The notes beneath the pieces are model-generated. The model did not search any database and was not told the origin of the DNA. It saw nothing but the letters and a program-made list of their open reading frames with translations. Shown piece after piece: positions 3,208 through 55,956 of a stretch of 64,000 bases of DNA; positions within the stretch are counted from its first letter, which is position 1, and each line of letters opens with the position of its first letter. The stretch comes from Shigella phage ESh30. Made by a program: the position numbers and the translations under genes. The stretch lies in sequence record ON528740; one strand, 5' to 3'.

Positions 3208-3239
3208 AGTTTAAATTTTTTTCATAAAACTATATACAT

Positions 3240-3278
3240 CAGTAGTTGATTATGGTACTATATCAATATCAACTACTG
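3240..3278 (+). promoter_or_regulatory. perfect 11-bp inverted repeat (cagtagttgat / atcaactactg) enclosing a -10-like GGTACTATAT element
   Basis: Seen directly in sequence upstream of ORF 3305..3574. Confidence 0.5.
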
Positions 3279-3304
3279 ATACAGAAAATAACTTGGAGAA
3301 TAAA

Positions 3305-4783: not shown

Positions 4784-5044
4784 ATGAAATATATTAATCG
4801 TTCTATCGCAGCATTAGTATTAGCAGTGTCTTTAGTAGGATGTACTGATGCTGATAATGCAACCAAAGTTTTGTCTTCAAGCGGTTTTACTAATATTGAA
4901 ATCACTGGATATAACTGGTTCGGTTGTTCTGAAAATGATTTCCAACATACTGGATTTCGTGCTATTGGACCTACTGGGCAGAAAGTAGAAGGAACAGTAT
5001 GTTCTGGGCTGTTCTTTAAGGATTCAACTATTCGTTTTAAATAA
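4784..5044 (+). CDS. predicted lipoprotein (signal peptide + lipobox LVGC)
   Basis: MKYINRSIAALVLAVSLVGCTD... N-terminus. Confidence 0.5.
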   Translation: MKYINRSIAALVLAVSLVGCTDADNATKVLSSSGFTNIEITGYNWFGCSENDFQHTGFRAIGPTGQKVEGTVCSGLFFKDSTIRFK

Positions 5045-5062
5045 AAGGCCTTCGGGCCTTTA
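5044..5062 (+). terminator. stem-loop aaggcc-UUCG-ggcctt, intrinsic-terminator-like
   Basis: GC stem with UUCG tetraloop followed by T-rich tract. Confidence 0.5.
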
Positions 5063-5113
5063 GCTTTATGATTGCCGGAGTATAATATTCCCGAAACCAA
5101 ACGAGGATAAGTG

Positions 5114-9388: not shown

Positions 9389-10327
9389 ATGTACAATATT
9401 AAATGCCTGACCAAAAACGAACAAGCTGAAATTGTTAAGCTGTATTCAAGTGGTAATTACACCCAACAGGAATTGGCTGATTGGCAAGGTGTATCGGTTG
9501 ACACAATCCGTCGTGTTTTGAAAAATGCTGAAGAAGCTAAACGCTCTAAAGTTACTATTAGCGGTGATATTACAGTTAAAGTTAATAGCGATGTAGTTAT
9601 TGCTCCAGTTGCTAAATCTGACATTATTTGGAATGCATCTAAAAAATTCATTTCAATTACTGTTGATGGTGTAACTTATAATGCAACACCTAATACTCAT
9701 TCAAACTTCCAGGAAATTCTTAATCTGCTTGTAGCGGATAAGCTGGAAGAAGCAGCACAAAAAATTAATGTTCGTCGCGCTGTTGAAAAATATATTTCCG
9801 GTGATGTTCGAATTGAAGGTGGAAGCTTATTCTATCAAAATATTGAATTGCGGTCTGGTTTGGTTGATCGTATTCTTGATTCGATGGAAAAAGGCGAAAA
9901 CTTTGAATTTTATTTTCCGTTCTTGGAAAATCTGCTGGAAAACCCAAGCCAGAAAGCGGTATCTCGACTTTTTGATTTCTTGGTAGCAAACGATATTGAA
10001 ATTACAGAAGATGGTTACTTCTATGCTTGGAAAGTAGTTCGCAGTAATTACTTTGACTGTCACTCAAATACCTTTGATAACAGTCCTGGTAAAGTAGTTA
10101 AAATGCCGCGTACTCGTGTGAATGACGATGATACACAAACTTGTTCTCGTGGTCTGCATGTGTGTTCTAAATCTTATATTCGTCACTTCGGTAGTTCAAC
10201 CAGCCGAGTTGTAAAAGTTAAAGTTCATCCTCGTGATGTAGTATCAATTCCGATTGATTACAACGACGCTAAAATGCGTACCTGCCAATACGAAGTAATT
10301 GAAGACGTTACTGAACAATTTAAATAA
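9389..10327 (+). CDS. rIIB: rIIB protein (312 aa)
   Basis: 312-aa ORF MYNIKCLTKNEQAEIVKLYSSGNYTQQELADWQGVSVDTIRRVL...; length and position match T4 rIIB. Confidence 0.93.
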   Translation: MYNIKCLTKNEQAEIVKLYSSGNYTQQELADWQGVSVDTIRRVLKNAEEAKRSKVTISGDITVKVNSDVVIAPVAKSDIIWNASKKFISITVDGVTYNATPNTHSNFQEILNLLVADKLEEAAQKINVRRAVEKYISGDVRIEGGSLFYQNIELRSGLVDRILDSMEKGENFEFYFPFLENLLENPSQKAVSRLFDFLVANDIEITEDGYFYAWKVVRSNYFDCHSNTFDNSPGKVVKMPRTRVNDDDTQTCSRGLHVCSKSYIRHFGSSTSRVVKVKVHPRDVVSIPIDYNDAKMRTCQYEVIEDVTEQFK

Positions 10328-10341
10328 GGGCTTCGGCCCTT
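10326..10341 (+). terminator. stem-loop aaggg-CUUCGG-ccctt after rIIB
   Basis: Inverted repeat; the identical hairpin recurs at 10554..10569. Confidence 0.4.
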
Positions 10342-10355: not shown

Positions 10356-10550
10356 ATGTTAGGTTATCAAGCACGAGTAAAAGAAGAATACGATCAATTA
10401 ATGCTCAAAATTAATGCACTGAGCAAATTTTTAGAAAGCACAAAGTTTCTAACGGTTAGTGCAGTTGAGCAAGAACTGCTGCTTTCACAGTTCATCTCAA
10501 TGAAATCTTATGCTGAGTGTCTAGAGAAAAGAATTGCACAATTCAAATAA
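10356..10550 (+). CDS. hypothetical protein (64 aa)
   Basis: ORF track; flanked by two copies of the gggcttcggccc hairpin. Confidence 0.45.
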   Translation: MLGYQARVKEEYDQLMLKINALSKFLESTKFLTVSAVEQELLLSQFISMKSYAECLEKRIAQFK

Positions 10551-10553
10551 AAT

Positions 10554-10576
10554 AAGGGCTTCGGCCCTTTTGTTTT
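10554..10576 (+). terminator. intrinsic terminator (gggcttcggccc + TTTTGTTTT)
   Basis: GC hairpin with UUCG loop followed by T-run. Confidence 0.6.
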
Positions 10577-10586
10577 AAGGTGAATT

Positions 10587-11422: not shown

Positions 11423-11469
11423 GTTTACATGCCACAAGGACCGTGGTACTATACAACTATCAACTACGG
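11423..11469 (+). promoter_or_regulatory. T4-type early promoter with -10 embedded in an imperfect hairpin
   Basis: cggtttacat...ccgtggtactatacaactatcaactacgg; 5' UTR nearly identical to the one at 11929..11975. Confidence 0.55.
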
Positions 11470-11480
11470 AGGAGCAGAAA

Positions 11481-11744
11481 ATGAAATTTAAATTTTATTA
11501 CGCTAAACATAAAATAACTGATGAGTTTGTGTCAGTTGAATATTCTAGCGATGATGAAGGTATGATTTATACTCGCTTAGGATTATCACATTGGGAGTCT
11601 GATCAACCTTATTTTTCAACTCCCGAAGAAATTACACGCTTAGTTAATGGTCATATGAATGACCACTGGAATGTAATTCTTTCAGATAGTCTTAAAGCGG
11701 CTATTAATAGTAATGAAATGAAAATCGCTGAGATTGAGCTATGA
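11481..11744 (+). CDS. hypothetical protein (~88 aa)
   Basis: ORF track 11388..11744 trimmed to ATG after RBS ggagga. Confidence 0.45.
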   Translation: MKFKFYYAKHKITDEFVSVEYSSDDEGMIYTRLGLSHWESDQPYFSTPEEITRLVNGHMNDHWNVILSDSLKAAINSNEMKIAEIEL

Positions 11745-11928: not shown

Positions 11929-11975
11929 GTTTACAAGACTGTTCTTCCGTGGTACTATTACCCTATCAACTACGG
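11929..11975 (+). promoter_or_regulatory. T4-type early promoter with hairpin
   Basis: gtttacaagactgttcttccgtggtactattaccctatcaactacgg; 5' UTR ctatcaactacggaggaRcagaaaatg shared with promoter at 11423. Confidence 0.55.
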
Positions 11976-11986
11976 AGGAACAGAAA

Positions 11987-12100
11987 ATGAAAAAGATTGT
12001 TAAAGCTATATGGAATGTAGTTATAATACTAATAGTTTTGAGTATATTCCCAATCGTTTTAATGATTGATGTATTAAACGTTTACTTTGGATTTATGTGA
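11987..12100 (+). CDS. small hydrophobic membrane peptide (37 aa)
   Basis: MKKIVKAIWNVVIILIVLSIFPIVLMIDVLNVYFGFM. Confidence 0.4.
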   Translation: MKKIVKAIWNVVIILIVLSIFPIVLMIDVLNVYFGFM

Positions 12101-13541: not shown

Positions 13542-14860
13542 ATAATCGCGATTTAAAAAGTATCATTGATAATGAAGCATTGGCTTATGCTATGTACACG
13601 GTTGAAAATCGTGCTATCCCAAATATGATTGATGGATTTAAGCCAGTTCAACGATTTGTTATTTCTCGAGCTCTTGATTTGGCACGAGGAAATAAAGATA
13701 AGTTTCACAAACTCGCTTCTATTGCAGGTGGTGTAGCAGACCTTGGATATCATCATGGTGAAAACTCTGCACAAGACGCAGGTGCTTTGATGGCTAACAC
13801 TTGGAATAATAATTTTCCTCTGTTAGATGGTCAAGGAAACTTTGGTTCTCGTACCGTCCAAAAAGCAGCAGCAAGTCGTTATATTTTTGCTCGTGTAAGT
13901 AAAAATTTCTATAACGTATATAAAGATACTGAATATGCTCCGGTACATCAAGATAAAGAACACATTCCGCCTGCTTTCTATTTGCCTATTATTCCTACTG
14001 TTCTTCTTAACGGTGTTTCCGGTATTGCAACTGGTTATGCAACTTACATTCTTCCTCATAGCGTTTCTTCTGTCAAGAAAGCTGTATTGCAAGCTCTTCA
14101 AGGAAAGAAAGTAACTAAACCGAAGGTAGAATTCCCAGAATTTCGTGGTGAAGTCGTTGAGATTGATAGCCAATATGAAATTCGTGGAACATATAAGTTT
14201 ACTTCACGAACTCAAATGCATATCACTGAGATTCCGTATAAGTATGATCGTGAAACTTATGTGAGTAAAATCTTAGACCCACTTGAAGATAAAGGCTTCA
14301 TTACATGGGATGATGCTTGTGGTGAGCATGGTTTTGGATTCAAAGTTAAATTCCGCAAAGAATATTCTTTGAGCGATAATGAAGAAGAACGTCATGCAAA
14401 AATTATGAAAGACTTCGGGTTGATTGAGCGTCGTTCTCAGAATATTACGGTTATTAATGAGAAAGGAAAATTACAAGTTTACGATAACGTAGTTGATTTA
14501 ATTAAAGACTTTGTTGAAGTTCGTAAAACTTATGTCCAAAAACGAATTGATAACAAAATTAAAGAAACTGAGTCCGCTTTTCGTTTAGCCTTTGCCAAGG
14601 CACATTTCATTAAGAAAGTAATTTCAGGTGAAATCGTTGTGCAGGGTAAAACTCGTAAAGAACTGACCGAAGAACTTTCGAAAATCGATATGTATTCTTC
14701 TTATGTTGATAAACTAGTCGGAATGAACATTTTTCATATGACTTCCGACGAAGCAAAGAAACTTGCTGAAGAAGCTAAAGCCAAAAAAGAAGAAAACGAA
14801 TATTGGAAAACTACTGATGTAGTTACAGAATACACCAAAGATTTAGAGGAAATCAAATGA
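13532..14860 (+). CDS. 52: DNA topoisomerase II medium subunit (GyrA-like), 442 aa
   Basis: MQLNNRDLKSIIDNEALAYAMYTVENRAIPNMIDGFKPVQRFVISRAL... (GyrA-type PVQR motif); ORF track 13520..14860 trimmed to ATG 13532. Confidence 0.93.
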   Translation: MQLNNRDLKSIIDNEALAYAMYTVENRAIPNMIDGFKPVQRFVISRALDLARGNKDKFHKLASIAGGVADLGYHHGENSAQDAGALMANTWNNNFPLLDGQGNFGSRTVQKAAASRYIFARVSKNFYNVYKDTEYAPVHQDKEHIPPAFYLPIIPTVLLNGVSGIATGYATYILPHSVSSVKKAVLQALQGKKVTKPKVEFPEFRGEVVEIDSQYEIRGTYKFTSRTQMHITEIPYKYDRETYVSKILDPLEDKGFITWDDACGEHGFGFKVKFRKEYSLSDNEEERHAKIMKDFGLIERRSQNITVINEKGKLQVYDNVVDLIKDFVEVRKTYVQKRIDNKIKETESAFRLAFAKAHFIKKVISGEIVVQGKTRKELTEELSKIDMYSSYVDKLVGMNIFHMTSDEAKKLAEEAKAKKEENEYWKTTDVVTEYTKDLEEIK

Positions 14861-15006
14861 GTCCATTCATTGGTATCACAAGCGCTGCATTAGTATCTGG
14901 TGGCATTTTACTGGCGGGTTTAGGTGTTGTTCCTGCCGTAGCAGGAGGTCTTCTTGCGTTCGGAATTCAACGTGTTATCATGACAGTTATCACAGTCATG
15001 CAGTAA
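14857..15006 (+). CDS. small membrane protein (49 aa)
   Basis: MSPFIGITSAALVSGGILLAGLGVVPAVAGGLLAFGIQRVIMTVITVMQ; ATGA overlap with gene 52 stop. Confidence 0.4.
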   Translation: MSPFIGITSAALVSGGILLAGLGVVPAVAGGLLAFGIQRVIMTVITVMQ

Positions 15007-15010: not shown

Positions 15011-15037
15011 AGGGAGAGCCTCGGCTCTCCCTTTTTT
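15011..15037 (+). terminator. intrinsic terminator (agggagagcc-tcg-gctctccct + T6)
   Basis: Perfect GC hairpin followed by TTTTTT. Confidence 0.7.
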
Positions 15038-15062
15038 ATTTCAAAAATTTTTTCACAAAACG

Positions 15063-15092
15063 GTTTACAACCAAAGCATACTGTGGTACTAT
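15063..15092 (+). promoter_or_regulatory. T4-type early promoter (GTTTAC ... GTGGTACTAT)
   Basis: Part of a terminator+promoter module repeated at 32420..32499. Confidence 0.6.
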
Positions 15093-15141
15093 ACAACTAT
15101 CAAATAAATGAACTGAAACAAACAACCCGGAGATACAAAAA

Positions 15142-15369
15142 ATGAAATTTAAAATCGAAAACGAAATCGTTAAAGCTAAAAATGCTCTGACTGCTAACAA
15201 ACTGGTTGTAGATGGTATTGAATATGATATCTGTGGAGTTCGTGAAGAAAAACCTGGTGTTCTGACTTTCTTCACAATGATTTTTAAATTTAAAGGTGAC
15301 ACAGAATTCAAACAGTTTGATTTTGCCCATGAAGACGAAATCGAAGTTCGTAATCTGAACATTAAGTAA
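15142..15369 (+). CDS. hypothetical protein (75 aa), in the motA.1 position
   Basis: ORF track. Confidence 0.5.
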   Translation: MKFKIENEIVKAKNALTANKLVVDGIEYDICGVREEKPGVLTFFTMIFKFKGDTEFKQFDFAHEDEIEVRNLNIK

Positions 15370-15408
15370 GTACTTTATTAGAGCTCTTGAAAAAGAGTGC
15401 AAAAAAGT

Positions 15409-15437
15409 GTTTACTTCTGCTTTAAACATGATACTAT
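15409..15437 (+). promoter_or_regulatory. T4-type early promoter upstream of motA
   Basis: gtttacttctgctttaaacatgatactat; 5' UTR ctatcaaataaatgaactgaaac shared with promoter at 15063. Confidence 0.55.
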
Positions 15438-15474
15438 AGACCTATCAAATAAATGAACTGAAACGGAGATTAAA

Positions 15475-16110
15475 ATGTCTAAAGTAACTTACATCATCAA
15501 AGCTTCTAACGATGTTCTGAATGAAAAAACTGCTGCGATTTTAATTACCATTGCTAAGAAAGATTTCATTACAGCCGCAGAAGTTCGTGAGGTGCATCCA
15601 GATTTAGGTAACGCAGTAGTTAATAGTAATATTGGGGTATTGATTAAAAAAGGCCTGGTGGAGAAATCTGGTGATGGATTAATCATTACTGGTGAAGCTC
15701 AGGATATTATTTCAAATGCGGCAACTTTATATGCACAGGAAAATGCTCCTGAACTACTGAAAAAACGAGCAACTCGTAAAGCTCGTGAGATTACTTCCGA
15801 TATGGAAGAAGATAAAGACCTTATGCTAAAACTTTTAGATGAAAATGGATTTGTTCTTAAAAAGGTTGAAACTTACCGCAGTAACTATCTTGCTATTTTA
15901 GAAAAACGCACTCACGGAATTCGTAATTTTGAAATTAATAACAATGGAAATATGCGAATTTTTGGATACAAAATGATGGAACACCATATTCAGAAATTTA
16001 CTGATATTGGAATGTCATGTAAAATCGCTAAAAACGGCAATGTGTATCTTGACATTAAACGCTCGGCAGAAAACATTGAAGCCGTAATCACTGTAGCATC
16101 TGAACTGTGA
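15475..16110 (+). CDS. motA: middle-transcription activator MotA (211 aa)
   Basis: MSKVTYIIKASNDVLNEKTAAILITIAKKDFITAAEVREVHPDLGNAVVNSNIGVLIKKGLVEKSGDGLIITGEAQ... recognised as T4 MotA. Confidence 0.9.
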   Translation: MSKVTYIIKASNDVLNEKTAAILITIAKKDFITAAEVREVHPDLGNAVVNSNIGVLIKKGLVEKSGDGLIITGEAQDIISNAATLYAQENAPELLKKRATRKAREITSDMEEDKDLMLKLLDENGFVLKKVETYRSNYLAILEKRTHGIRNFEINNNGNMRIFGYKMMEHHIQKFTDIGMSCKIAKNGNVYLDIKRSAENIEAVITVASEL

Positions 16111-18861: not shown

Positions 18862-18892
18862 AGACCCTCCTTTTAAGGATATTTATTCAAAA

Positions 18893-19693
18893 TTATACCC
18901 TTGGACCATATATTACTCCAACATTTTGCCATGTTGGAGCTGATCCTATAACAGCATATCCGGCAGCGCCACCAGCTCCAACTTTTAGAACTTTACCGCC
19001 ATCATACCAGGCATTTTGTCCATTTGCGCCAGCATCACCACCCTGGCCAGAGTGAGCATTACCATAATTATAACCACCTCCTGGGCCATCATAAGAAGCT
19101 GCGCCGCCGGAATAACCTCCGCCTCCTCCTGGGCCAAATGGTCTTCCTCCACCACCACTAATATCTTGCCAATTTGCACCAGAGTGAGGACGATAAGCGA
19201 TACCACCTCCACCTCCACCTCCACCACAAATTACTCCACCGTTATTAATTCTTAATCGTCCACCGATGTCATTTTGAATACAATGACCACCTTGTTGACC
19301 ATTACCATCTCCGCCGGAATGAGTCCATCCACCCTGTCCACCTCTACCCCACATATGGACGCCGCCACCAATATTCAACTGAACATATTCATTAGGTGTA
19401 TCTCCGTACATGAAGAATAAAGGAACGTCTCTAGAATATGATACCAAATTTCCGGTAATATTAAACACTATAGGTGCACTACCTGCCTCAAAACATCTAT
19501 CTCGGAACCATTGACCATTGAAGTTATGGTCTGCTCCAAGTGTATGAATAATTTCTCGTGAGCGACCTGCAAATTGACTCATCCAGCAAGGAACACCCAA
19601 TCTTAATTGACCAGCCGCTTGACTCATCCATCGTTGCCCTGTTTCATTTGCGGCTGAACTTCCAATCCAACCAGGAACACCAACTACTGCCAT
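18893..19693 (-). CDS. 38: long-tail-fibre tip adhesin gp38, T2-type (glycine-rich motifs separating variable segments), ~266 aa
   Basis: Start taken at [13 protein letters not shown] (ORF track extends to 19762); poly-Gly runs GGGGGGGG / GGGG / GGGGG typical of T2-family gp38 adhesins. Confidence 0.8.
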
Positions 19694-19704
19694 AATTATC
19701 TCCA

Positions 19705-19723
19705 AAGGGGGCGTTGCCCCCTT
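19705..19723 (-). promoter_or_regulatory. GC hairpin (agggggc-gtt-gccccct) in the 37-38 intergenic spacer
   Basis: Inverted repeat between gp37 stop (19728) and gp38 RBS. Confidence 0.4.
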
Positions 19724-19727
19724 GTTG

Positions 19728-22700
19728 TTAGAATTTAAAGTATTTACCAATTTTGCGAGCAATTTTAGTGAAGAAAGGCGTTTTCAATTCTTTAATTTCT
19801 TCACTCATTTCCTGAATGGCCTTAATTAAAAGAGCATTCACAGCAGAGTTAGAAATTGTCAGAACTTCGTCTGGTTTATCAAGGTTGCCAATTTTCGAAA
19901 TATTAATCGCTTCTGGTAATATTTCTTGTAAATCCTGTGCGATAATGCCAATCTCATGACCGATAATTTCACGGTCCTTAAGAGATTTAACTTTATCGTA
20001 AGTTTTAACTTTCAGTTTACCGATTAAATCGGTTGCATTTCCTATATAATCTTCGATGTTTTCTTTGAGGCGACGGTCTGATCGAATATAAACATCGTTA
20101 AAGTTTCCGTTACCAGTGGCATGAAATTCTCCACTTGCATTGAATTGATAATTAGCATCCTGAACATGGAGAACCGCTGACGCAGTATTATTACTATTAC
20201 CGGGCATATGAACGTCCAGAGCAGCGATGTAGTTACGCCCCCAATCAACCGCTTTCCAAATAGCATGAGCACTATCAACGCTTTGTTGACAGTCAAGCAA
20301 CAAACCAGCAGGGCGGTCTCTCCAATTCGCATAAGCACCACCAGAAACTTCACCGCGAATAAGCCCTTGATCTCCGGCATAAGGAACACGCTCTCCCGTT
20401 TTAATCATTGCACCCCGGAAGTGATGACTAAATGAACCCCCATAATTATTTCGTATATGTAAAATACCATCATCGGTCGCCCAAATAACAGCCTTTTCTG
20501 TTTCGCTATCATCTCTAAACCAGATATGGCGTGCACCAGTTGAGTTTTTGATGGTTATTCCGTTAGGTCCATGCACGGTCAAAGCACCAGATACATCAAA
20601 TAAAACGGTGTTATCTGTTCTACGTTCCGTATAGAAGTGATAACCTTTGGAATCACCGATTTCCATCACTGCCGCGCGACCAACTTCTGAATTTCCCCAA
20701 TTATTGATATGGAATCGTTCAGAGCTATTATTCATCTGATTTAGGTGTAATGTACCATCAGTGAATGTTTCGCCAAAGAAACGAGTTTTAATTGCACCAG
20801 TCGCTAAAGTACGTTCAGTGGAAAAATGAACGCCTTTGCTGTCTTCTAACTGAATAATGTTATCGCGCGCATTATTACTATCACCCCAATGGTTAAATTT
20901 AAAATAATCTCGTGATCCTAAACGTCCGGCATCAAAAGTCATCAAGCCTTTTATATTAATATCACCACCAAAAAATGCGGTGAGAGAATCGCGTTTTAAA
21001 ATTAAAACGTTAGCACCACTAGCACCACCCAAAATAACATCGCCAGTTTTTAATTGATAGCGGAAAGGTCTATTTGTATTAAAGTTTCCATCTTGATCAT
21101 TTTCGTCGGTGGAAAGAATATAAAGACTCTCTCCATCATTACGGAAAATTGTACCAAATTTTCCGCCATACATACGGAATGCATTAGATGAGCGGAATTT
21201 AACTTCTGTTTTAAATGTGGTAGTGTTATTAAGGTTAACAGTAGAGTTAAAATTGGTAGGAGCACCGAAGTTAACAGCACCATTAAAATCTTGTTGAGCT
21301 GTCCATGTGTGGCGACCATCTTCAAGAACAACACGGCGGACTGTGCAAGTTCTATTTCCAGAATTACCGAACACACGAACGACAAAATAACGGTAGTTTG
21401 TCTGGGATACAGTACCGCGCCAAACCTGAACAGTACGCCCTGTGCTAGTGTGTTCGCTAGGACCAACGGAAAACATAACCAGGTTTCCGTCAATCGTCCC
21501 CCAATCCATATTTGCTGGCATGTTCTTGACTTTATTCAGCGGTACGCTAAACATACTACCAGGAACAAAATCAAATGTTTGCCAATCTAACTCTGTTAAT
21601 TGAGATTTAACACCACCCATACCCAAAGTAATTGGCAGAGAATAAGATGTATATACTTCGTTCCATGCGCCCCACGCATCACCAGTATATGCACGCTCAA
21701 AAATACGTCCGCGAGTAGTTGCACCCGTTCCGGCAGTAGTAAATTTTTGGAAAATAGCACCACCAGAAGCACGCTGTTTAACTTCCAGCAAACCAACAAT
21801 AACAGGCGGCAAACCTTCACCTGTAGGGCAGTTAATAACGGCATCAGTGCCTAAAATATTATATAAACCAGGAGTTTTAAAATCATTCAGGTTTCCGTCA
21901 TAGAAAGTCGCTGGTGTGCCATGACCAACCTGCTTCCATTCCTCCCACTTAGGCGCACTAGCATCCCATGCAGCAGCGAGACAACGAGTATATACAACAC
22001 CAAATCTGGTTGTATATCTTTGTGTACGAGAATAGTTTCCACCTTCATATACTTCCAAAAGACCTTGAGCTGACGACCCCTCTTCTGGGAAATTTCTGTC
22101 AAAGGTAGCAATGGAACTTGAACTATTTCGCCACAAACCAAAGTGTTCAGCGCCTCCTAGATCATTAAGATCAATTGTTGTTGACAGTGGACGAGTACCG
22201 GATTGAATATTGCGCCACGGACCCCATGGACCATCGACGCCATTCCATTTAGCAGATAAGGAACGAATATAGACGTTACCAGATCTTACAGTATAACGCT
22301 GAGTGCCAGCAAATTGGCCGGCCACAAATACTTCTAGTACACCTACGGCATTTTCTTCTGGGAATTTATTTGCTGGTTGCGCATTTGTTGAAGTAGATTT
22401 CGACCAAACACCAAGATATTCTTCAATGGGCCCATACGTATCTAAATTAGCATCAGTAGGTAATTCGCCATTATTTTTTATAAATGTTGTGCTATTGACA
22501 TTTATGTCAGATGGAGTTAAGGTAATGTCCTTTGACCCATCAAAAGATATACCATTAATTTTCCTAGGTGTTTGCAATTTAGTAGCTGTGCTAGAATTTC
22601 CAATTAAAGTTCCAGTTATATTTTCTGTAACCTCTAAAGACCCATTTATAGTTCCTCCATATTTTAAACCTAATTCTATAACACTACCTGAGTCATCTTT

Positions 22701-22820
22701 TGTGAAAATTGTTTTATCTTTTAAGTTTATAGCCAATTCACCTTCGGCTAATACTGAAGCAGCAGGACGTTGACCTGCAGTTTTGCTTCTTTTAAATTGT
22801 ATTTGTTTTAAAGTAGCCAT
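19728..22820 (-). CDS. 37: long tail fibre distal subunit gp37 (1030 aa) with C-terminal intramolecular-chaperone-like domain
   Basis: 1030-aa ORF downstream of gp36; C-terminus [14 protein letters not shown]...[19 protein letters not shown] resembles the self-cleaving chaperone domain of phage fibres. Confidence 0.88.
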
Positions 22821-22828
22821 AAGTCCTC

Positions 22829-23479
22829 TTAATAATAGCCGAAATCTTGAACAGAATCCTTCATTACGATTTGGTCAAATCGTGGAACGTGTGAAGGTTG
22901 AGATGCAGGATTCTGTGAAAAAAGGTTTGGCGCAGTTAAATTTCCTGTCATAGTGTCTCCAGAGCGTAATACCCTAGAGTTTGCATTTGCTGTAACAGTA
23001 TTTATTGCTCCATCAACATAATCTTTGCGAGTAACATCAGATGCTGCGGAAGGAGTAGATGTAACAGTTACAGATGGAGCCGTTACAGCTTTGGTAAATG
23101 TTGTCAAACCTTCTGGCGTAATAGTAATTTGTCCAGTAGTGATTTCACTACCTGCTGGTCTAAAACTAATACCGCCAGAAGAGCCACCAACTACAAGAGT
23201 ATTACCAGTGCCGCCACCAGAACGAATTCGGATAGGGGTTTCATTATTACTTAATTGAAGATAACTATTTACCCCGTAATTAATAGTAATTGGACCGGCG
23301 TAAGTACCACCATTAGCTTTAGAAACGAAATCGTTATCAGCTGCCTGCGGTTTATTATATTCTGAATATATTTTAAATGATTTGTAGAGTACATCGTCAC
23401 CGGCTGAATTCAATGGAAAATTTCCTTGATGCCAAATGACAGATCCACCCACAGTTGAACCTACTTTTAAATCAGCCAT
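22829..23479 (-). CDS. 36: long tail fibre distal connector gp36 (216 aa)
   Basis: Length and position between 35 and 37. Confidence 0.82.
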
Positions 23480-24665: not shown

Positions 24666-27600
24666 TTATTCAATCCACTCAAATTTAACAGTTTTATTCA
24701 CTGGGTCAGGAATAATGCGAACATTACCAATTCGCAAGAAATCGCGAATAGTAAGATTACCTATTATTCCATTATCAGATGGGATCGCTCCTATATCTGA
24801 AGGTTGAGGAGGGTTACCTCCGTCAAATACCTGAACAAAACTTGACCAAGAGTTTTTGGTTTTCTGCCATGTACGTGTCCAGCGAGTGGTACGTGCTTCT
24901 GGGGTCGTTGGATAAGTAATCCAATCTTGGTAAAGTGAATCAAGTGTGTTACCAAACTGAGTCAATGTACCAGGAGATTTAACTTCTTCACCACGTTCTA
25001 AGTATGGAAGTCCAGTCACTTCATTAGTTTTTTCAACCATTTTAAAATAACCCGGGAACTGGTTATAAGTGGCTGAATCATTAATATCGATTGACCAGAA
25101 TCCTACTGTATCAGATGTTGGCGCACGGGTATATAAATCAGAGGTTTTAGTACCCTGAGAACGAATTCTCGAGTTAACAGTCAAACCACCCGAACTTATA
25201 GTAGCACCTTTTGCAATGATTAAGCTTTCACCAATCGTTACTTGGCCAGATGCATTATTAATAGCTAAAGGACGCAATCCATTAAATCCGCCAGTCTGAT
25301 CACCCGATGCAGTAAGCATAAAATTCGTTACTGACCCGTCATTGCGAACAATGAAACCATAATTTCCGCTAATAGCACGGAAAGCATTTGCGCTTCGAGA
25401 AATAATTTCACCAGTTGCAGTGACTGAATTACCAAATGTTGCTACACCATTTGCATTCAATGTTCCTGAAGCATTCACATTTATCGGCGTTACTGTACCG
25501 TTGATATTAAATGTTATATTTCCAGCTTTATTACGCTGAGAATAAAAATGACTAGACGTTTCATCACTAACTTCAAATACGGTAGAACGTGTTGTGTCTG
25601 ATTCCCCACTAAATTGATTTCCCCACACTCTGACTGTCATCGTTTGAGCTGGGTTTGTTCCAGTTTGAGGTCCTTTCTCAAAAATCAGACGAGTTGCCGT
25701 TCCAGTATTAGAAATAGTTAATGTACTATTTGCTGAAACTGATCCACCGAATGTAGCAGTACTAGATGATACAAGAGGGGCACTCAGATTCGTTTGTTGG
25801 GTTAAGGTTAGTGAACCATTAACTGTTTGTGCAATGTCCCTACGAATGAACTGGAGCGAATCTAGACCATCTAATAAATTACTATCTACAGCTTTTGCTT
25901 TTAATGGCAAATAATTTGCTAATACGCGATTTAATTCATATGGTGATACTGCATAACCATTTTTCTCATATGATTCTAATGGCTGTGTTGAACCTACCGT
26001 ATCATTACCAACGAATGTAATTGAACCAGATGAAGTTTTAACAAAACCTCTTATTGCAGTAGTAGCTGCCCAAGTAGGTTCACTCTGCACAATCCATTTT
26101 AAATTTTTTGGAGATACAGCAGTATTTGCTGACGTTCCAGCCACAGTTTCAGACTGAGTTGCAACTTTAATGACACCTTCCTGTGCTTCAGTAGATTTAG
26201 TACCTAAAAGCTTTTTAGGAGTTATTAAAACATTATCTAATGTTCCTGCAGCAGCTTCAACTTGTGTAGCTACACGAAGTGTACCACGCTGTGTCTCATT
26301 TGCTTCAAGAATATTAAGGGTATAATGGTCCCAGAGAGTTCCTGATTCAACTAATCCAGATAGAGCAACAACAGAAGTACGATCAGTACTATTAAATCTG
26401 GTTTTAATTTTTAATGGTGTAGAGATACGAGTATCGTCGACGCCTGCGTCGAATTCAACCTGTGTAGCAATTTCAGCTATACCACTTAAACTTTCAGTTG
26501 CTCTACGGTCATTTAAAGTTTTAGGAGTGACTGCACGAGTATAATCAGTTCCTGTATTAACTTCACTTTGTGTAGCAATTTCAATTAAACCAATTCTTGC
26601 ATCAGTTGATGTCTTTTTATGTAACGTTTCTGGCGTTACAACCGCATTTGCCCATCCTTCTTGGCTTTGTCCAGCAATTACTTCACTTTCAACTGCTAAA
26701 ATTACTGCGCCTTGTTGCGTTGGAGTAGCTTTATACTGATCCAAAGCTTTAGGTGAAACAACTAAATTATTAGTGTTTTTATTATAAACATTCGTACCAT
26801 TTAATTCACGACTAGAAGCTGGAGTAGCTCCTGCGGTAGATACAAAAGTTACAATACCCGATAATGTTTCAGAACCTTGACGAGCTTGAAGCTTTTTAGG
26901 AGTGATGATTGTAGTATCATCGATACCTGTATTAGTTTCCTGCTGCGTAGCAATTTCAGCAACACCTCTGCGAGTTTCTGTAGCAGTTCTTTCATTCAGC
27001 TTTTTAGGAGTGATGATAAGGTCATCAGCAAAAGAGAATGTAGTGTTCTGATTTACTTGAGCAGTAGTTGCTATTCTTGCGATACCTCTGCGAGTTTCTG
27101 TAGCAGTACGATTAGCTAACGTTTCTGGAGTAATTGCCAATTCTTTTTGCGGAGAATTTTCTAAATCAGCATTTGCTTGAGCTTGCGTAGCTAAAGCAAT
27201 TACGCCTAATCTTGCTCTAGTAGAAGCATTTAAAGAGTCTACTCTTTCTACAGTTGGAACGTTTTGCTGTACAACCCAGTATTTTCCATCAGAATCTTCT
27301 ATATAAGCAAGTTGTAAAACTGGAACATAATTAGTTTCACCGTTAAAAACTAATTCTTGAACTGTTACCCATTCAGCTTCAGGCGGATATTCTGAACGTT
27401 TTGGGAATTGCAGCAATTGAACTGAAGAAGCAATTTTATCTTCACCAGCAGCTTTGATTTTAACTGTTTGTCCTTTTCTCATGTAATTCATGGAAATTTT
27501 AACAGTATCACCAACAGAAATATCAGTCGGAAGCTGAAGTTCAATTGTTTGGGTTGTTCCATTATTCGCGCCAAATACCATGACTTCTTCATTTGGACGA

Positions 27601-30151: not shown

Positions 30152-30801
30152 TTAAACTCCGCATGCCTGCTGGTGGTGAAAGATACATTGATGGTAAATC
30201 AGTTTATAAATTATACTTAATGATAAAACAGCATATGAATGGAAAGTATGATGTTATTAAGTATAATTGGTGCATGCGGGTGTCTGATGCCGCTTATCAA
30301 AAGCGAAGGGATAAGTATTTTTTCCAGAAGTTATCAGAAAAATATAAATTAAAGGAACTTGCTTTAATCTTTATAAGCAATCTTGTTGCTAACCAGGATG
30401 CTTGGATTGGCGACATCTCTGACGCTGATGCACTTGTGTTTTATCGTGAATATATCGGACGCTTAAAGCAAATTAAATTTAAGTTTGAAGAAGATATTCG
30501 CAACATTTATTATTTTAGTAAGAAAGTTGAAGTTTCTGCTTTTAAAGAAATCTTTGAGTATAATCCAAAAGTTCAATCAAGTTATATTTTTAAACTACTT
30601 CAATCGAATATAATTTCGTTTGAAACGTTTATCTTGCTTGATTCGTTTTTAAATATAATTGATAAACACGATGAACAGACTGATAATTTAGTCTGGAATA
30701 ATTATTCTATAAAGTTAAAGGCTTATAGAAAAATTTTAAATATTGATTCACAGAAAGCTAAAAATGTTTTCATTGAAACTGTGAAATCTTGTAAGTATTG
30801 A
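30148..30801 (+). CDS. 59: helicase loader gp59 (217 aa)
   Basis: 217-aa ORF, same length as T4 gp59, immediately downstream of 33. Confidence 0.82.
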   Translation: MIKLRMPAGGERYIDGKSVYKLYLMIKQHMNGKYDVIKYNWCMRVSDAAYQKRRDKYFFQKLSEKYKLKELALIFISNLVANQDAWIGDISDADALVFYREYIGRLKQIKFKFEEDIRNIYYFSKKVEVSAFKEIFEYNPKVQSSYIFKLLQSNIISFETFILLDSFLNIIDKHDEQTDNLVWNNYSIKLKAYRKILNIDSQKAKNVFIETVKSCKY

Positions 30802-30802
30802 T

Positions 30803-31435
30803 ATGAATATAGTATATTGGTTTACATTTGAAGACCGTGTCAAAAATAAGACTCCGCCATACTACTATATCGGTAGTAAATTAAATTGCTCATTTGAGAA
30901 CGGAATAATATATGACTCTTCCGGAAAGGAATACTGGAGCTCATGTAAACAAAAAAGATTTTTGAATGCGCTAATGCTTCAAAAACCGAGCGTTAAAATA
31001 ATTCAAATTGATGATGACTTGGATGTTATTGAAGCAGAACGAAAATACCAACTTGAAGTAAATGCCAGAGATAATCCAGACTATTTTAATCTGGTATATG
31101 CTGGTGGTGGATTTGGTGTGAGTGGTGAAACTCATCCAGCCAAAGACCCGGAAGTTAGAGAGCATATGAGATTGGCTAATTATATGAACCGTGACGATTT
31201 TAGACCTTGGAAAACATCACGAGCTAATATAGAGTCTTGGAAATTATCTCATATTGCTTACGAGAATTATGTGTTATTATTATCCTCTAATCTGTACGGT
31301 AAAACTCCCGGATGGCGAAGAGTTAAAGGTAATATAAATATAACTGATACAACTGCTAAATCGATGGTAAAGTATTTCAACTCAGGTTGGATACCTCTCG
31401 AAGACCCAGAGTATTGCGAATTATGCCAGCTATGA
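30803..31435 (+). CDS. segG: GIY-YIG homing endonuclease, SegG-like (210 aa)
   Basis: N-terminal GIY-YIG-like motif IVYWFTF...YYIGSK; located between 59 and 32 where T4 carries segG. Confidence 0.6.
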   Translation: MNIVYWFTFEDRVKNKTPPYYYIGSKLNCSFENGIIYDSSGKEYWSSCKQKRFLNALMLQKPSVKIIQIDDDLDVIEAERKYQLEVNARDNPDYFNLVYAGGGFGVSGETHPAKDPEVREHMRLANYMNRDDFRPWKTSRANIESWKLSHIAYENYVLLLSSNLYGKTPGWRRVKGNINITDTTAKSMVKYFNSGWIPLEDPEYCELCQL

Positions 31436-32395: not shown

Positions 32396-32419
32396 TAGAT
32401 TATATTACTAATTAATTGG

Positions 32420-32445
32420 GGACCCTAGAGGTCCCCTTTTTTATT
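32420..32445 (+). terminator. intrinsic terminator (ggggaccc-taga-ggtcccc + T6) after gene 32
   Basis: Perfect GC hairpin followed by TTTTTT. Confidence 0.7.
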
Positions 32446-32468
32446 TCAAAAATTTTTCATAAAACGGT

Positions 32469-32499
32469 TTACATCCTTGTCCTTCCATGGTACTATACA
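32469..32499 (+). promoter_or_regulatory. T4-type early promoter (GTTTAC ... ATGGTACTAT)
   Basis: Part of the terminator+promoter module also present at 15011..15092. Confidence 0.6.
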
Positions 32500-32812: not shown

Positions 32813-33199
32813 ATGGAAATCGGCAAAAAATACGAGTTAAATCCACACCGTATTAAATCTTTCATTGATATTAGTTCATCAAATGCTAATATGGTCGGCA
32901 TCATTCAAGAAAATGGTGGTTGGTTTGAAGTTAAATCAATATCAAGTTTAGATGGCTTTGATTATGTAACCGAAATCATTTGTGCTAATGGTGAAATCTA
33001 TAATGATGATGGTATGGGTGATGATTATTTTGAACTTAGTGAAGAAGAGTTTTATTGTTTCCGCGAATATAAAGAACCAACTTCTGAAGAAGATGAAGTC
33101 AAAGACAAGGTTTCTGGCGTAACAAAAATTCACTGCATTGTTGACGAAAACAATGTAGATGAAATCATTGAACTTTTGCGAAAAACTTTCAAAAAGTAG
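32813..33199 (+). CDS. hypothetical protein (~128 aa)
   Basis: ORF track 32798..33199 trimmed to ATG after RBS gaggaaaatcaaa. Confidence 0.45.
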   Translation: MEIGKKYELNPHRIKSFIDISSSNANMVGIIQENGGWFEVKSISSLDGFDYVTEIICANGEIYNDDGMGDDYFELSEEEFYCFREYKEPTSEEDEVKDKVSGVTKIHCIVDENNVDEIIELLRKTFKK

Positions 33200-33233
33200 T
33201 TTACATCAGGGTAGTAGTGTGATACTATTACCC
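33199..33233 (+). promoter_or_regulatory. T4-type early promoter with -10 inside hairpin gggtagta/tattaccc
   Basis: gtttacatcagggtagtagtgtgatactattaccc. Confidence 0.55.
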
Positions 33234-33258
33234 TATCAAAACTAATGGAGAAAAGAAA

Positions 33259-41681: not shown

Positions 41682-41735
41682 GTTTACAAGTCCCTCGTGT
41701 TGTGTTACAGTAGTCTTACTGACATAACATGAGGA
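41682..41735 (+). promoter_or_regulatory. early promoter / 5' UTR module, copy A of a 54-bp near-identical repeat (other copy 55903..55956)
   Basis: gtttacaagtccctcgtgttgtgttacagtagtcttactgacataacatgagga; 1 mismatch to copy B. Confidence 0.6.
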
Positions 41736-45006: not shown

Positions 45007-45045
45007 GTTTACTTTACGGTAGAGTTGTGATATTATAGCTCTACC
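45007..45045 (+). promoter_or_regulatory. T4-type early promoter with -10 (TATTAT) inside hairpin ggtagag/ctctacc
   Basis: gtttactttacggtagagttgtgatattatagctctacc. Confidence 0.55.
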
Positions 45046-48649: not shown

Positions 48650-48676
48650 AGGACTCCTTCGGGAGTCCTTTTTTAT
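48650..48676 (+). terminator. intrinsic terminator (aggactcc-UUCG-ggagtcct + T7)
   Basis: Perfect 8-bp stem, UUCG loop, TTTTTTATTTT. Confidence 0.7.
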
Positions 48677-48698
48677 TTTCCAAAGATTGCATAAAGTT

Positions 48699-48731
48699 GT
48701 TTACAGTATGGTTCCTTTGTGATAGTATTAT
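48699..48731 (+). promoter_or_regulatory. T4-type early promoter (GTTTAC ... TAGTATTAT)
   Basis: gtttacagtatggttcctttgtgatagtattat. Confidence 0.55.
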
Positions 48732-48755
48732 CTTACACAAACAAAGGAGAATAAA

Positions 48756-49090: not shown

Positions 49091-49130
49091 GTTTACTTTG
49101 GTACAGGATATGATATTATATACCTGTACC
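49091..49130 (+). promoter_or_regulatory. T4-type early promoter with -10 (TATTAT) inside 8-bp hairpin ggtacagg/cctgtacc
   Basis: gtttactttggtacaggatatgatattatatacctgtacc. Confidence 0.55.
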
Positions 49131-53441: not shown

Positions 53442-53456
53442 AGGCCTTCGGGCCTT
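53441..53456 (+). terminator. stem-loop aaggcc-UUCG-ggcctt
   Basis: Same hairpin sequence as at 5044..5062. Confidence 0.5.
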
Positions 53457-55545: not shown

Positions 55546-55931
55546 ATGGAACTTATTACATAATTATTTGACGGCGCTTCGGCGCCGGTTATTAACTTAA
55601 ATCCTAAGCATAAAATACCACAAATTTTTGCTATTCAAGCCGGCGAAGAAAGCGTGCTTCCTGGATTTAGATTTTGTACATACACCTCTGGCGGTGATAC
55701 AAATAAAACGTTAAACCAGGCGATAAAATGATGCATATCGTAATGATAGGTGTTAATGAGAAACTATCATTAGTTAAGCTTAAAAACTTGAGTGGAAATC
55801 CAATTGGTGTCATTAATGCTGTTTTTGATACTGCTCTTCAAACAATGAAACAGTATAAAATCGACGCATGCCTATTACGCGTACTAAAAAGTTCAAAATG
55901 TAGTTTACAAGTCCCTCGTGTTGTGTTATAG
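55546..55931 (+). pseudogene. disrupted partial paralog of the alt 5' region (nonsense codon at codon 6 and a 1-nt deletion); distal part is a 67-aa ORF
   Basis: atggaacttattacaTAA... aligns to alt atggaacttattacaGAA...; downstream frame MMHIVMIGVNEKLSLVKLKNLSGNPIGVINAVFDTALQTMKQYKIDACLLRVLKS parallels Alt residues 64-120. Confidence 0.6.
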
Positions 55932-55956
55932 TAGTCTTACTGACATAACATGAGGA
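55903..55956 (+). promoter_or_regulatory. early promoter / 5' UTR module, copy B of the 54-bp repeat (copy A at 41682..41735)
   Basis: gtttacaagtccctcgtgttgtgttatagtagtcttactgacataacatgagga. Confidence 0.6.

What the first reader, a model, noticed from the sequence alone, without database searches (positions are those of the whole stretch)
15011..15092. Repeated terminator-hairpin plus early-promoter modules (PeSL-like), with -10 elements inside inverted repeats
The module GC hairpin + TTTTTTATTTCAAAAATTTTT(T)CA(C/T)AAAACGGTTTACA ... GGTACTATACAACTATC occurs at 15011..15092 and again at 32420..32499, with different but compensatory stems. Promoters at 11423 and 11929 share the 5' UTR ctatcaactacggaggaRcagaaaatg; those at 15063 and 15409 share ctatcaaataaatgaactgaaac. 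Several others (3240..3278, 33199..33233, 45007..45045, 49091..49130) have the -10 inside an inverted repeat. Such repeats in plastic regions full of tiny ORFs are plausible substrates for modular gene shuffling.
Basis: partly seen in the sequence, partly recalled or inferred. Interest (0 to 1): 0.45.

Follow-up and report, generated by a model that had tools for sequence, protein, structure and literature searches.

The report
T4 early promoter–terminator modules (PeSL)
The flagged repeat is an ordinary transcription terminator followed by a strong early promoter of a T4-like phage, a module type already published as a recombination point for shuffling small genes; the copy in front of motA shows clear traces of such an exchange.

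Summary
The window is a Tequatrovirus (T4-like) genome segment, reverse-complemented relative to T4 and about 96-98% identical to sequenced relatives. Position 15011-15092 holds the intrinsic terminator after motA.1, then a T4-type early promoter: UP element, GTTTACA, TGn plus TACTAT, and an inferred start at 15099.

The near-copy downstream of gene 32 is real; its hairpin starts at 32418. There is a third terminator-promoter module at 48650-48728. In all, 17 early-type promoters lie on the + strand and none on the - strand. Twelve of the thirteen compared with T4 have orthologues there; one maps exactly to T4's annotated Pe133295.

The shared 5' leaders and the inverted repeats around the -10 element are also confirmed.

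This architecture and its proposed role in gene shuffling were published as PeSLs (Arbiol 2010), and extended to the T4/PST pair (Comeau 2014). So the finding is correct but already known.

New supporting evidence:
- The 75-aa ORF cassette between two promoter copies upstream of motA is absent from T4. It is 92-100% identical to a Dhakavirus whose flanking genes are only 64-76% identical, and the identity boundaries fall inside the promoters.
- The repeats around the -10 covary, favour G:T mismatches, and are rare where an upstream terminator is present. This suggests hairpins in read-through RNA.

The parts
15011..15041 (+). Intrinsic terminator after motA.1 (ORF 14857-15006): 9-bp GC-rich stem, TCG-containing loop, then TTTTTTATTT
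   Evidence: RNA dG -18.6 kcal/mol; 0 of 200 shuffles fold as well. Orthologous to the T4, SA21RB and JK08 spacers.
15042..15062 (+). A/T-rich UP-element-like block CAAAAATTTTTTCACAAAACG upstream of -35
   Evidence: Sequence. Identical block at 32447-32466. The match to the E. coli UP consensus is from established knowledge. T4 early promoters are described as UP/-35/TGn/-10 promoters in PMC2988021.
15063..15092 (+). Early promoter Pe1: -35 GTTTACA, 15-nt variable spacer, TGn-extended -10 TGGTACTAT; inferred start A at 15099
   Evidence: 98.8% identical to T4 163713-163633.
15098..15141 (+). 5' leader (ctatcaaataaatgaactgaaac...) with Shine-Dalgarno GGAG for ORF75; its first 23 nt are repeated at 15443-15465
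   Evidence: (family D4).
15142..15369 (+). ORF75 (75 aa, phrog_10955, unknown function), the cargo of the promoter-flanked cassette; absent from T4
   Evidence: 98.7% nt identity to Dhakavirus IME281, against 64-76% for the flanking genes.
15381..15400 (+). Weak AT-rich stem-loop (GAGCTCTT-GAAA-AAGAGTGC) upstream of Pe2, with no T-run
   Evidence: dG -6.4, z -2.3. Stem-loops with different sequence occupy the same place upstream of motA in other genera (L011-L015).
15409..15437 (+). Early promoter Pe2 (GTTTACT, 16-nt spacer, TACTAT) directly upstream of motA (15475-16110); no T4 counterpart. It resembles the motA promoter of other T4-like genera.
   Evidence: (no T4 hit).
32418..32446 (+). 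Gene 32 intrinsic terminator (GGGGACC-CTAGA-GGTCCCC plus TTTTTTATTT)
   Evidence: A terminator followed by an early promoter after gene 32 is seen in nearly all of 26 loci from several T4-like genera, with different stems.
32447..32496 (+). UP block plus early promoter (GTTTACA ... TGGTACTAT) driving the frd.3 homologue
   Evidence: T4 146920-146816, 86.7% identity.
48650..48728 (+). Third terminator+promoter module: AGGACTCC-TTCG-GGAGTCCT, TTTTTTATTTT, GTTTACA, TAGTAT. An inverted repeat (48713-48720 / 48741-48748) covers the SD of the 30.8 homologue.
   Evidence: dG -15.4. T4 130354-130251, 98% identity.
11423..11483 (+). Early promoter after denB, with the leader ctatcaactacggaggagcagaaaATG (ORF87, phrog_2390)
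   Evidence: T4 lacks most of ORF87; the left junction lies in this leader.
11929..11990 (+). Early promoter with the same leader; inverted repeat 11939-11950 / 11972-11983 (11 pairs plus one U.G) sequesters the SD GGAGGA
   Evidence: dG -22.7, z -6.0.
3232..3280 (+). Early promoter (TATACA -35 variant) with a 13-bp perfect inverted repeat enclosing the -10
   Evidence: (dG -20.2).
33199..33234 (+). Early promoter whose -10 forms part of the 3' arm of a 10/11 inverted repeat
   Evidence: In UViG L061 a different promoter with compensated arms and a different ORF order occupies this slot.
45007..45045 (+). Early promoter equal to T4 Pe133295; the stem pairs spacer -26..-17 with -6..+4, and the loop is TGn plus the -10
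   Evidence: Covariation in 12 orthologues: 7 of 10 pairs show double changes.
49091..49130 (+). Early promoter upstream of the 30.7 homologue, with an 8-bp perfect inverted repeat enclosing the -10
   Evidence: Promoters at a similar distance downstream of cd in other genera carry different arms; orthology was not verified.
41682..41735 (+). alc promoter plus leader, 98% identical over 54 nt to the alt.-3 promoter at 55903-55956; the inverted repeat covers the SD
   Evidence: D5; the same duplication exists in T4.
55903..55956 (+). alt.-3 promoter plus leader, twin of 41682-41735

Best explanation
Position 15011-15092 is a boundary between two early transcription units of a T4-like phage.

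How the module works:
- A rho-independent terminator ends transcripts coming from gene 52 and motA.1.
- About 20 nt further on, host sigma-70 RNA polymerase re-initiates at a very strong T4-type early promoter. It has a near-consensus UP element, -35 GTTTACA, TGn-extended -10 TACTAT, and a start at the A of CTATCAA.
- This promoter drives a small ORF and then, through a second promoter copy, motA.

The same design recurs after gene 32 and after the 30.9 homologue. The promoter part recurs 17 times, always in the early direction. The copies resemble each other because every conserved block is a polymerase contact.

These 20-60 nt patches of identity, which extend into shared 5' leaders, also serve as homology for the phage's own recombination machinery. 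As a result, ORFs flanked by two copies can be excised, inserted or swapped. This is the published PeSL mechanism.

Where no terminator precedes a promoter, an inverted repeat usually pairs the -35/-10 spacer with the region just after the -10. Only transcripts reading through from upstream contain both arms. In those RNAs the hairpin either marks or protects the 3' end of the upstream message, or, in four cases here, hides the next gene's ribosome-binding site.

What is shown: the sequence anatomy, orthology to T4 promoters, the cassette polymorphism and mosaic boundaries, covariation, and mutual exclusion with terminators. What is inferred: promoter and terminator activity in this phage, the recombination pathway, and the RNA-level role of the hairpins.
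For: Identity and anatomy:
- The window is a Tequatrovirus.
- Terminator hairpins followed by T-runs.
- 15 strict promoter matches on + and 0 on -, against 1.5 expected; 17 with a PWM scan.
- T4 orthologues for 12 of 13 tested promoters, and an exact match to annotated Pe133295.
- Independent terminator/promoter annotation in SA21RB.
- T4 early promoters are UP/-35/TGn/-10 promoters (PMC2988021).
- Terminator plus early promoter after gene 32 in nearly all of 26 loci across genera, with different stems.

Recombination:
- The ORF75 cassette is flanked by a 36-nt repeat at 92% identity.
- It is absent in T4, SA21RB, L008 and L009, and present in 126 of 551 records.
- Window versus Dhakavirus IME281: gene 52 75.8%, motA 63.8%, but 15084-15443 is 92-100% identical.
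- An ORF75 homologue sits in the tRNA region of a Jiaodavirus, preceded by an early-type promoter and followed by a weaker promoter-like sequence.
- At the frd.2/frd.1 junction the promoter/ORF order is permuted in L061.
- 7 of 14 non-HEG indels have a breakpoint within 60 nt of a promoter.

Hairpins:
- Enrichment in the window, and in 136 distinct promoters of other genera: at least 9 pairs in 31.6% against 2.3% of random segments.
- RNA dG from -12 to -24 kcal/mol.
- Covariation score 0.565, against 0.05-0.14 for slid registers and 0 of 500 shuffles.
- Arm mismatches: G:T 61 versus A:C 26, against 371:330 in controls.
- The -10-enclosing repeat is found in 17% of promoters with an upstream terminator and 52% without (Fisher p about 1e-4).
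Against: - No transcript data for this phage. Activity is inferred from orthology to T4.
- Only one of 14 indels has promoter copies on both sides. Several junctions lie at ATGAAA/SD microhomologies or at GGGC..GCCC hairpins.
- Against a null of 'any intergenic boundary' (17 of about 95 carry a promoter), the 7 of 14 association is not significant (my estimate, p about 0.14).
- Synthetic Pe x Pe junction queries for the ndd and frd pairs found no precise deletion recombinant among the best-ranked records.
- The T4 short allele is not a simple deletion of the window's cassette: its leader differs.
- Sequences in the hairpin statistics are related, so those p-values are optimistic.
- The G:T bias fits a non-template single-stranded DNA hairpin as well as RNA.
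- The 48700 module has both a terminator and an inverted repeat.
Confidence: 0.85

Rival explanations
1. Pure functional convergence. The copies look alike only because each is selected towards the same optimal UP/-35/TGn/-10/+1 consensus for host RNA polymerase. They play no special part in recombination, and indels simply fall in intergenic DNA.
For: - Identity between the 15011 and 32418 modules is confined to polymerase-contact blocks, while the spacers and stems are unrelated.
- 13 of 14 indels lack promoter copies on both sides, and many junctions are at start-codon microhomologies.
- The association is not significant against an intergenic null.
- No Pe x Pe deletion recombinants were found for two pairs.
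Against: - Identity extends into 23-27 nt of 5' leader, which is not a polymerase contact.
- The alc and alt.-3 promoters share 54 nt at 98% identity, including the spacer.
- The ORF75 cassette's high-identity tract against a Dhakavirus starts and ends inside promoter modules.
- Minicircles with junctions in PeSLs were shown experimentally in RB49/phi1 (PMC2839356).
Confidence: 0.2
2. The inverted repeats around the -10 act on DNA rather than RNA. They would be either an operator for a dimeric phage or host protein that shuts early promoters off, or a cruciform or single-strand hairpin that helps open the promoter or attracts a structure-specific nuclease.
For: - The loop of the best-studied stem is exactly TGn plus the -10 hexamer, and the stem ends at +4, so almost none of it lies in the promoter's own transcript.
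- The mechanism of early-promoter shut-off is stated to be unknown (PMC3014915).
- The G:T bias is also compatible with a non-template-strand DNA hairpin.
Against: - The arms covary freely with no conserved sequence, which argues against a sequence-specific protein.
- Loops of 10-24 nt disfavour cruciform extrusion (established knowledge).
- The repeats are rare when an upstream terminator removes read-through RNA.
- In four promoters the 3' arm covers the Shine-Dalgarno, as in the known T4 e, soc, 49 and I-TevI RNA hairpins (PMC3014915).
Confidence: 0.12
3. The modules are ends of a dedicated mobile element moved by a site-specific recombinase that recognises the stem-loop.
For: Arbiol et al. 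speculate that the GGGG...CCCC stem could be a protein target (PMC2839356). GGGC..GCCC hairpins sit at some junctions.
Against: - Stems differ completely between copies and across genera.
- Junction positions vary: -10 to +1, leader, SD.
- No recombinase is associated. The cassette cargo is a 75-aa protein of unknown function.
Confidence: 0.04

Closest known systems
PeSL (promoter-early stem-loop) cassettes of T4-like phages (Arbiol et al. 2010, PMC2839356; Comeau et al. 2014, PMC4122927)
   Same: The composite has the same parts: an AT-rich upstream region, a sigma-70-type early promoter, a stem-loop (either upstream as a terminator or overlapping the -10), then the SD and start codon of a small ORF. 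The modules cluster in hyperplastic regions. They flank ORFs that differ between close relatives. Crossovers lie between the -10 and the ATG. The T-even consensus TTTACW-N17-TAYWAT matches.
   Different: Nothing essential differs. For PST/T4 the 2014 paper places the stem-loops just upstream of the promoter. Here many T-even promoters instead carry the stem around the -10, a class described for RB49/phi1. Minicircles have not been shown for T-evens, and cannot be shown here.
Bacteriophage T4 early promoters (Pe), e.g. Pe133295 and the motA promoter (reviewed in PMC2988021)
   Same: They are orthologous at 87-100% identity, have the same strand logic, and share the UP/-35/TGn/-10 architecture with extra conserved positions.
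   Different: This phage carries a second motA-proximal promoter (Pe2, 15409-15437) and the ORF75 cassette, both of which T4 lacks. The leader sequences differ from T4 at motA and after denB.
T4 RNA hairpins with an embedded promoter that sequester the ribosome-binding site in long transcripts (genes e, soc, 49, I-TevI; PMC3014915)
   Same: The 5' arm lies upstream of the proximal promoter's start, so only read-through RNA folds. In 11930, 41683, 48700 and 55904 the 3' arm covers the SD.
   Different: The known cases use late promoters and separate early from late expression. Here the embedded promoter is an early one, and in most cases the 3' arm stops at about +4 to +12 and leaves the SD free.
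Morons and integron cassettes
   Same: Each is a single small gene carried with its own promoter and/or terminator and inserted between resident genes.
   Different: There is no integrase or attC site. Movement relies on homology in the regulatory repeats themselves. Orientation is always co-directional with early transcription.

Membership tests
PeSL | Sigma-70-type early promoter with the T-even consensus TTTACW-N17-TAYWAT | tested here: met
   15 strict matches plus 2 PWM matches, all on the + strand.
PeSL | Adjacent or overlapping stem-loop able to act as a terminator or attenuator | tested here: met
   Upstream terminators at 15011, 32418 and 48650. Stems enclosing the -10 in 9 of 17 promoters. 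Terminator activity itself was not measured.
PeSL | AT-rich region upstream of -35, and the SD plus start codon of a downstream ORF at the 3' end | tested here: met
PeSL | Preferential location in hyperplastic regions rich in small ORFs; none in late structural blocks | tested here: met
   There are no promoters between 17872 and 28582, the tail-fibre block on the - strand. Clusters lie in the ndd, motA, frd, cd and 30.x regions.
PeSL | Association with insertions, deletions or replacements between close relatives, with the junction inside the element | tested here: met
   - motA cassette.
- frd.2/frd.1 permutation.
- 7 of 14 indels have a breakpoint within 60 nt of a promoter.
The association is weak against an intergenic null.
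PeSL | Formation of excised minicircles by recombination between neighbouring elements | not testable with these tools
   This needs inverse PCR on infected cells or phage stocks, as in PMC2839356.
T4 early promoter (Pe) | Orthology to mapped T4 early promoters, and transcription in the early (counter-clockwise) direction | tested here: met
   (12 of 13 tested promoters). The inferred start 45043 equals T4 133295, annotated as Pe133295.
T4 early promoter (Pe) | Activity immediately after infection with unmodified host polymerase | not testable with these tools
   This requires transcript mapping.
Intrinsic (rho-independent) terminator | GC-rich stem of 5-10 bp, short loop, and an immediately following T-run | tested here: met
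   dG -18.6, -14.3 and -15.4 kcal/mol, each followed by TTTTTTATTT.
Promoter-embedded RBS-sequestering hairpin (e/soc/49 type) | 5' arm upstream of the proximal start, and 3' arm pairing with the SD or AUG | tested here: inconclusive
   The feature is met for 11930, 41683, 48700 and 55904. It is not met for 3233, 33200, 45008 and 49092, where the SD is left free.

The most novel reading that the evidence does not exclude
The inverted repeats that enclose the -10 of early promoters may form a conserved, covarying RNA structure class across Tevenvirinae, largely mutually exclusive with intrinsic terminators. On this reading every early promoter is preceded by a 3'-end structure for the upstream message. 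That structure is either a terminator or a non-terminating hairpin. The hairpin would stabilise the upstream mRNA after RegB or RNase E cleavage at the adjacent GGAG, or restrict translation of the next gene to its own promoter's transcripts. This systematic rule has not, to my knowledge, been stated for the T-even phages.
Probability: 0.4. Interest if true: 0.45.

Novelty: already known. Interest (0 to 1): 0.25.

Why it matters
The finding shows that a sequence-only reader can recover a published regulatory and recombination module. It does not reveal a new kind of element.

Two by-products have modest value:
- The ORF75 cassette gives a clean natural example of PeSL-type exchange between genera: 92-100% identity inside the cassette, 64-76% in the flanking genes, with boundaries inside the promoters.
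- The hairpins enclosing the -10 show quantitative evidence of selection as single-strand structures, and they substitute for terminators. If confirmed by transcript mapping, this would refine how tandem early transcription units of T4-like phages are insulated. It would also help when engineering phages by cassette insertion at these sites.

Tried and rejected
- Synthetic recombinant-junction queries for the 11424x11930 and 32468x33200 promoter pairs against 50,697 phage records. The best-ranked matches were all two-piece, non-recombinant arrangements. The ranking cannot exclude rarer recombinants.
- IMG/VR scan with MotA. It gave only 13 loci, too few close relatives for statistics. Scans with cd and gp32 were more useful.
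- Breakpoint enrichment test. It looks significant against a uniform-sequence null, but not against an 'any gene boundary' null, so I do not claim general enrichment.
- Miller et al. 2003 (PMC150520) is not held, and no supplements are held for Comeau 2014. I therefore could not check whether these exact modules are in their PeSL lists.
- No T4 transcription-start-mapping paper was found in the library.
- Rfam scan: it returned only the td group I intron, and nothing for the modules.
- A single column-wise consensus structure for all promoters was rejected, because the stem register relative to the -10 differs between promoter families. Covariation was tested within one orthologous family only.
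- The idea that the T4 short motA allele is a simple deletion of the window's cassette was rejected, because the T4 leader is a different sequence, also found downstream of the 3233 promoter.

Full report
**What the window is.** The window has about 35% G+C. It matches hundreds of Tequatrovirus genomes; the best are about 96-98% identical, for example MLP2 and JK08. It is the reverse complement of the T4 map. It runs from the dexA/motB side through rIIA-rIIB, denB, ndd, 52 and motA to asiA on the + strand. Next comes the late tail-fibre block (t, 38-34) on the - strand. The + strand then carries rnh, 32, frd, td, nrdAB, alc, pseT, cd, 31, rIII, 30.x, 30 and alt.

**Checking the observation.** The terminator hairpin after motA.1 lies at 15011-15032 (AGGGAGAGCC-TCG-GCTCTCCCT, RNA dG -18.6 kcal/mol). 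It is followed by TTTTTTATTT, an A/T block, GTTTACA, a 15-nt spacer, TGGTACTAT and CAACTATC.
- The second copy follows gene 32: the preceding ORF ends ...DDLLNDL*. Its hairpin, GGGGACC-CTAGA-GGTCCCC, starts at 32418.
- A pattern covering the T-run, UP block and -35 matches exactly these two sites, with none expected by chance.
- A gapped alignment shows near-identity in the T-run-to-(-35) block and in TGG..CTATC. The spacers and stems are unrelated.
- The shared leaders (11424/11930 and 15098/15443) and the four inverted repeats around the -10 are all present.
- I found a third terminator+promoter module at 48650-48728.

**Promoter census.** The strict pattern TTTAC[AT]N16-18TA[CT][AT][AG]T gives 15 hits on the + strand and none on the - strand, against 1.5 expected for both strands. 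A PWM scan adds 3233 and 48700, making 17. None lies in the late block between 17872 and 28582. Of the 13 promoters falling in the T4 segment I fetched, 12 have T4 orthologues at 87-100% identity; the exception is Pe2 at 15410. The inferred start of the 45008 promoter (45043) maps to T4 133295, and the T4 record names the early promoter there Pe133295. Phage SA21RB annotates the orthologous motA.1-motA spacer as a rho-independent terminator plus a T4 early promoter. Hinton's review describes T4 early promoters as UP/-35/TGn/-10 promoters with additional conserved positions (PMC2988021). This explains why the identity between copies sits in discrete blocks.

**Conservation of the composite.** Downstream of gene 32, nearly all of 26 loci from several T4-like genera (gp32 identity 56-99%) show a GC-rich hairpin with a T-run, followed closely by GTTTAC-N17-TAnnAT. 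The stems differ completely between lineages. The terminator-then-early-promoter design is therefore old and maintained by selection.

**Comparison with the literature.** Arbiol et al. 2010 defined PeSLs in RB49/phi1 as an AT-rich region, a sigma-70-like early promoter, a stem-loop and the SD/ATG of a small ORF (PMC2839356). In their data the stem-loops most often lie between -35 and -10 or overlap the -10. The elements cluster in hyperplastic regions and flank differential ORFs. They form minicircles whose junctions lie between the -10 and the ATG. Comeau et al. 2014 extended PeSLs to T4/PST with the consensus TTTACW-N17-TAYWAT (PMC4122927). Their worked example is the ndd.4/.5 exchange, in the same region as window 11.4-12 kb.

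**Testing shuffling at the flagged locus.**
- T4, SA21RB and two IMG/VR genomes have terminator-Pe1-leader-motA.
- The window, JK08, MLP2 and three other IMG/VR genomes (L006, L007, L010) have terminator-Pe1-leader-ORF75-weak hairpin-Pe2-leader-motA.
- The two leaders form a 36-nt, 92% identical repeat. In one search, 126 of 551 records carry the long form.
- Pe2 resembles the motA promoter of more distant genera.
- ORF75 (phrog_10955, unknown function) occurs in 167 records.
- In Dhakavirus IME281 it occupies the same slot, between two Pe2-type promoters. Window versus IME281 identity is 75.8% for gene 52 and 63.8% for motA, but 92-100% from 15084 to 15443, with ORF75 at 98.7%.
- The left boundary lies between the -10 and +1 of Pe1. 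The right boundary lies in the Pe2 leader, just before the motA SD. This is the zone where Arbiol et al. mapped minicircle crossovers.
- In a Jiaodavirus the ORF75 homologue lies in the tRNA region. An early-type promoter precedes it and a weaker promoter-like sequence follows it.
- At the frd.2/frd.1 junction, one relative has ORF-promoter where the window has promoter-ORF.

**How general is the association?** I compared the window with T4, MLP2, JK08 and four IMG/VR Tequatrovirus genomes (five contigs). I counted 14 indel or replacement events in early regions that are not homing-endonuclease or intron differences.
- Seven have a breakpoint within 60 nt of an early promoter.
- Only the motA cassette has promoter copies on both sides.
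- Other junctions sit at ATGAAA or SD microhomologies between adjacent genes, or at GGGC..GCCC hairpins.
- Against a uniform null this is strong enrichment. Against 'any gene boundary' (17 of about 95 carry a promoter) it is not significant.
- Two synthetic Pe x Pe junction queries found no precise recombinants among the top records.

Promoter modules are thus one of several kinds of short intergenic homology used.

**The inverted repeats around the -10.**
- In the window, 9 of 17 promoters have at least 8 pairs, against 13.7% of random segments. Their RNA folding energies are -12 to -24 kcal/mol, with z-scores from -3.7 to -7.4.
- In 136 distinct promoters from other genera, 31.6% have at least 9 pairs against 2.3% of controls. 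The arm sequences differ widely between promoters and genera.
- For 12 orthologues of Pe133295, a 10-bp stem pairs spacer positions -26..-17 with -6..+4, and its loop is exactly TGn plus the -10 hexamer. In this stem 86.7% of cells are paired, against 22-48% in slid registers. Seven of 10 pairs show double compensatory changes, and no shuffle of 500 reaches the covariation score.
- Mismatches inside arms are G:T 61 versus A:C 26, against 371:330 in controls. This points to a sense-strand single-stranded structure.
- Such repeats occur in 17% of promoters preceded by an intrinsic terminator and in 52% of the rest (Fisher p about 1e-4; the sequences are not independent).
- In 11930, 41683, 48700 and 55904 the 3' arm covers the Shine-Dalgarno. 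This resembles the T4 e, soc, 49 and I-TevI hairpins described by Uzan and Miller (PMC3014915).
- Several downstream SDs are GGAGAATAAAATG, which matches the RegB consensus GG*AGRAYARAA quoted in that review.

I infer that the stems form in read-through RNA. There they would provide either a 3'-end structure for the upstream message or a translational gate. This step is inference, not demonstration.

**Verdict.** Interest is low to moderate. The useful additions are the inter-genus ORF75 cassette example and the quantitative evidence on the hairpins enclosing the -10.

Noticed in passing
window 41682-41735 and 55903-55956: The promoters and 5' leaders of alc and alt.-3 are 98% identical over 54 nt, including the normally variable spacer, although they lie 14 kb apart. 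T4 has the same duplication. This suggests gene conversion or a shared regulatory hairpin that hides both Shine-Dalgarno sequences.
   Followed up: partly
window 35370-35651: A group I intron (Rfam RF00028, 70 bits) sits in td without a homing-endonuclease ORF. T4 has about 689 extra bases (I-TevI) here. Three IMG/VR relatives lack the roughly 325-bp segment containing the intron.
   Followed up: partly
window 30799-31426: The SegG-like ORF (30803-31435) between genes 59 and 32 is present here and in T4. It is replaced by 38 bp in MLP2 and two IMG/VR relatives. This looks like a homing-endonuclease presence/absence polymorphism.
   Followed up: no
L006 (motA.1 module) and L064 (gene 32 module), both from IMGVR_UViG_2974787500_000001: This one genome has deletions at both terminator-promoter modules. 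One is 40 bp, running from the terminator 3' arm into the -35. The other is 71 bp, running from the gene 32 3' end through the terminator. They are either real loss of both terminators or an assembly artefact at GC hairpins.
   Followed up: no
window 5044-5069, 10316-10341, 10544-10578, 53440-53465; L023 near 12445: There is a family of intergenic GGGC/GGCC-TTCG-GCCC hairpins (AAGGGCTTCGGCCCTT, AAAGGCCTTCGGGCCTTT). One forms the right junction of a 786-bp deletion of the 30.8 and 30.7 homologues in a relative. This recalls the GGGC-associated T4 deletions cited by Arbiol et al.
   Followed up: partly
T4 163637-163603 (L002) versus window 3268-3288: The first 17 nt of the T4 motA leader (CAACTACTGATACAGAA) are not at motA in this phage. 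They are the leader of the 3233 promoter about 12 kb away, where they form the 3' arm of a 13-bp perfect inverted repeat.
   Followed up: partly
L065-L068, L077, L079 (about 30-130 nt downstream of gene 32): In other T4-like genera, a long inverted repeat (for example gtaacttatacgttacattaacc...ggtaacttttacgttac) is inserted between the gene 32 terminator and the next early promoter. Its nature is unknown.
   Followed up: no
window 26158-27134 (- strand, gene 34): Five diverged copies (60-72% identical) of a 68-nt unit lie at irregular spacing inside the proximal tail-fibre gene. They are presumably repeated structural motifs of gp34.
   Followed up: no
window 11471-11711: T4 lacks most of ORF87 (phrog_2390). 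It keeps only the last eight codons (MKIAEIEL*) as a mini-ORF overlapping the ndd.6 start. This is a remnant left by deletion at AATGAAAT microhomology.
   Followed up: partly
window 18886-23300: The distal tail-fibre and adhesin region (gp37/gp38) is not colinear with T4. It resembles the gp38-adhesin type annotated in JK08 and MLP2, the usual host-range mosaic.
   Followed up: no
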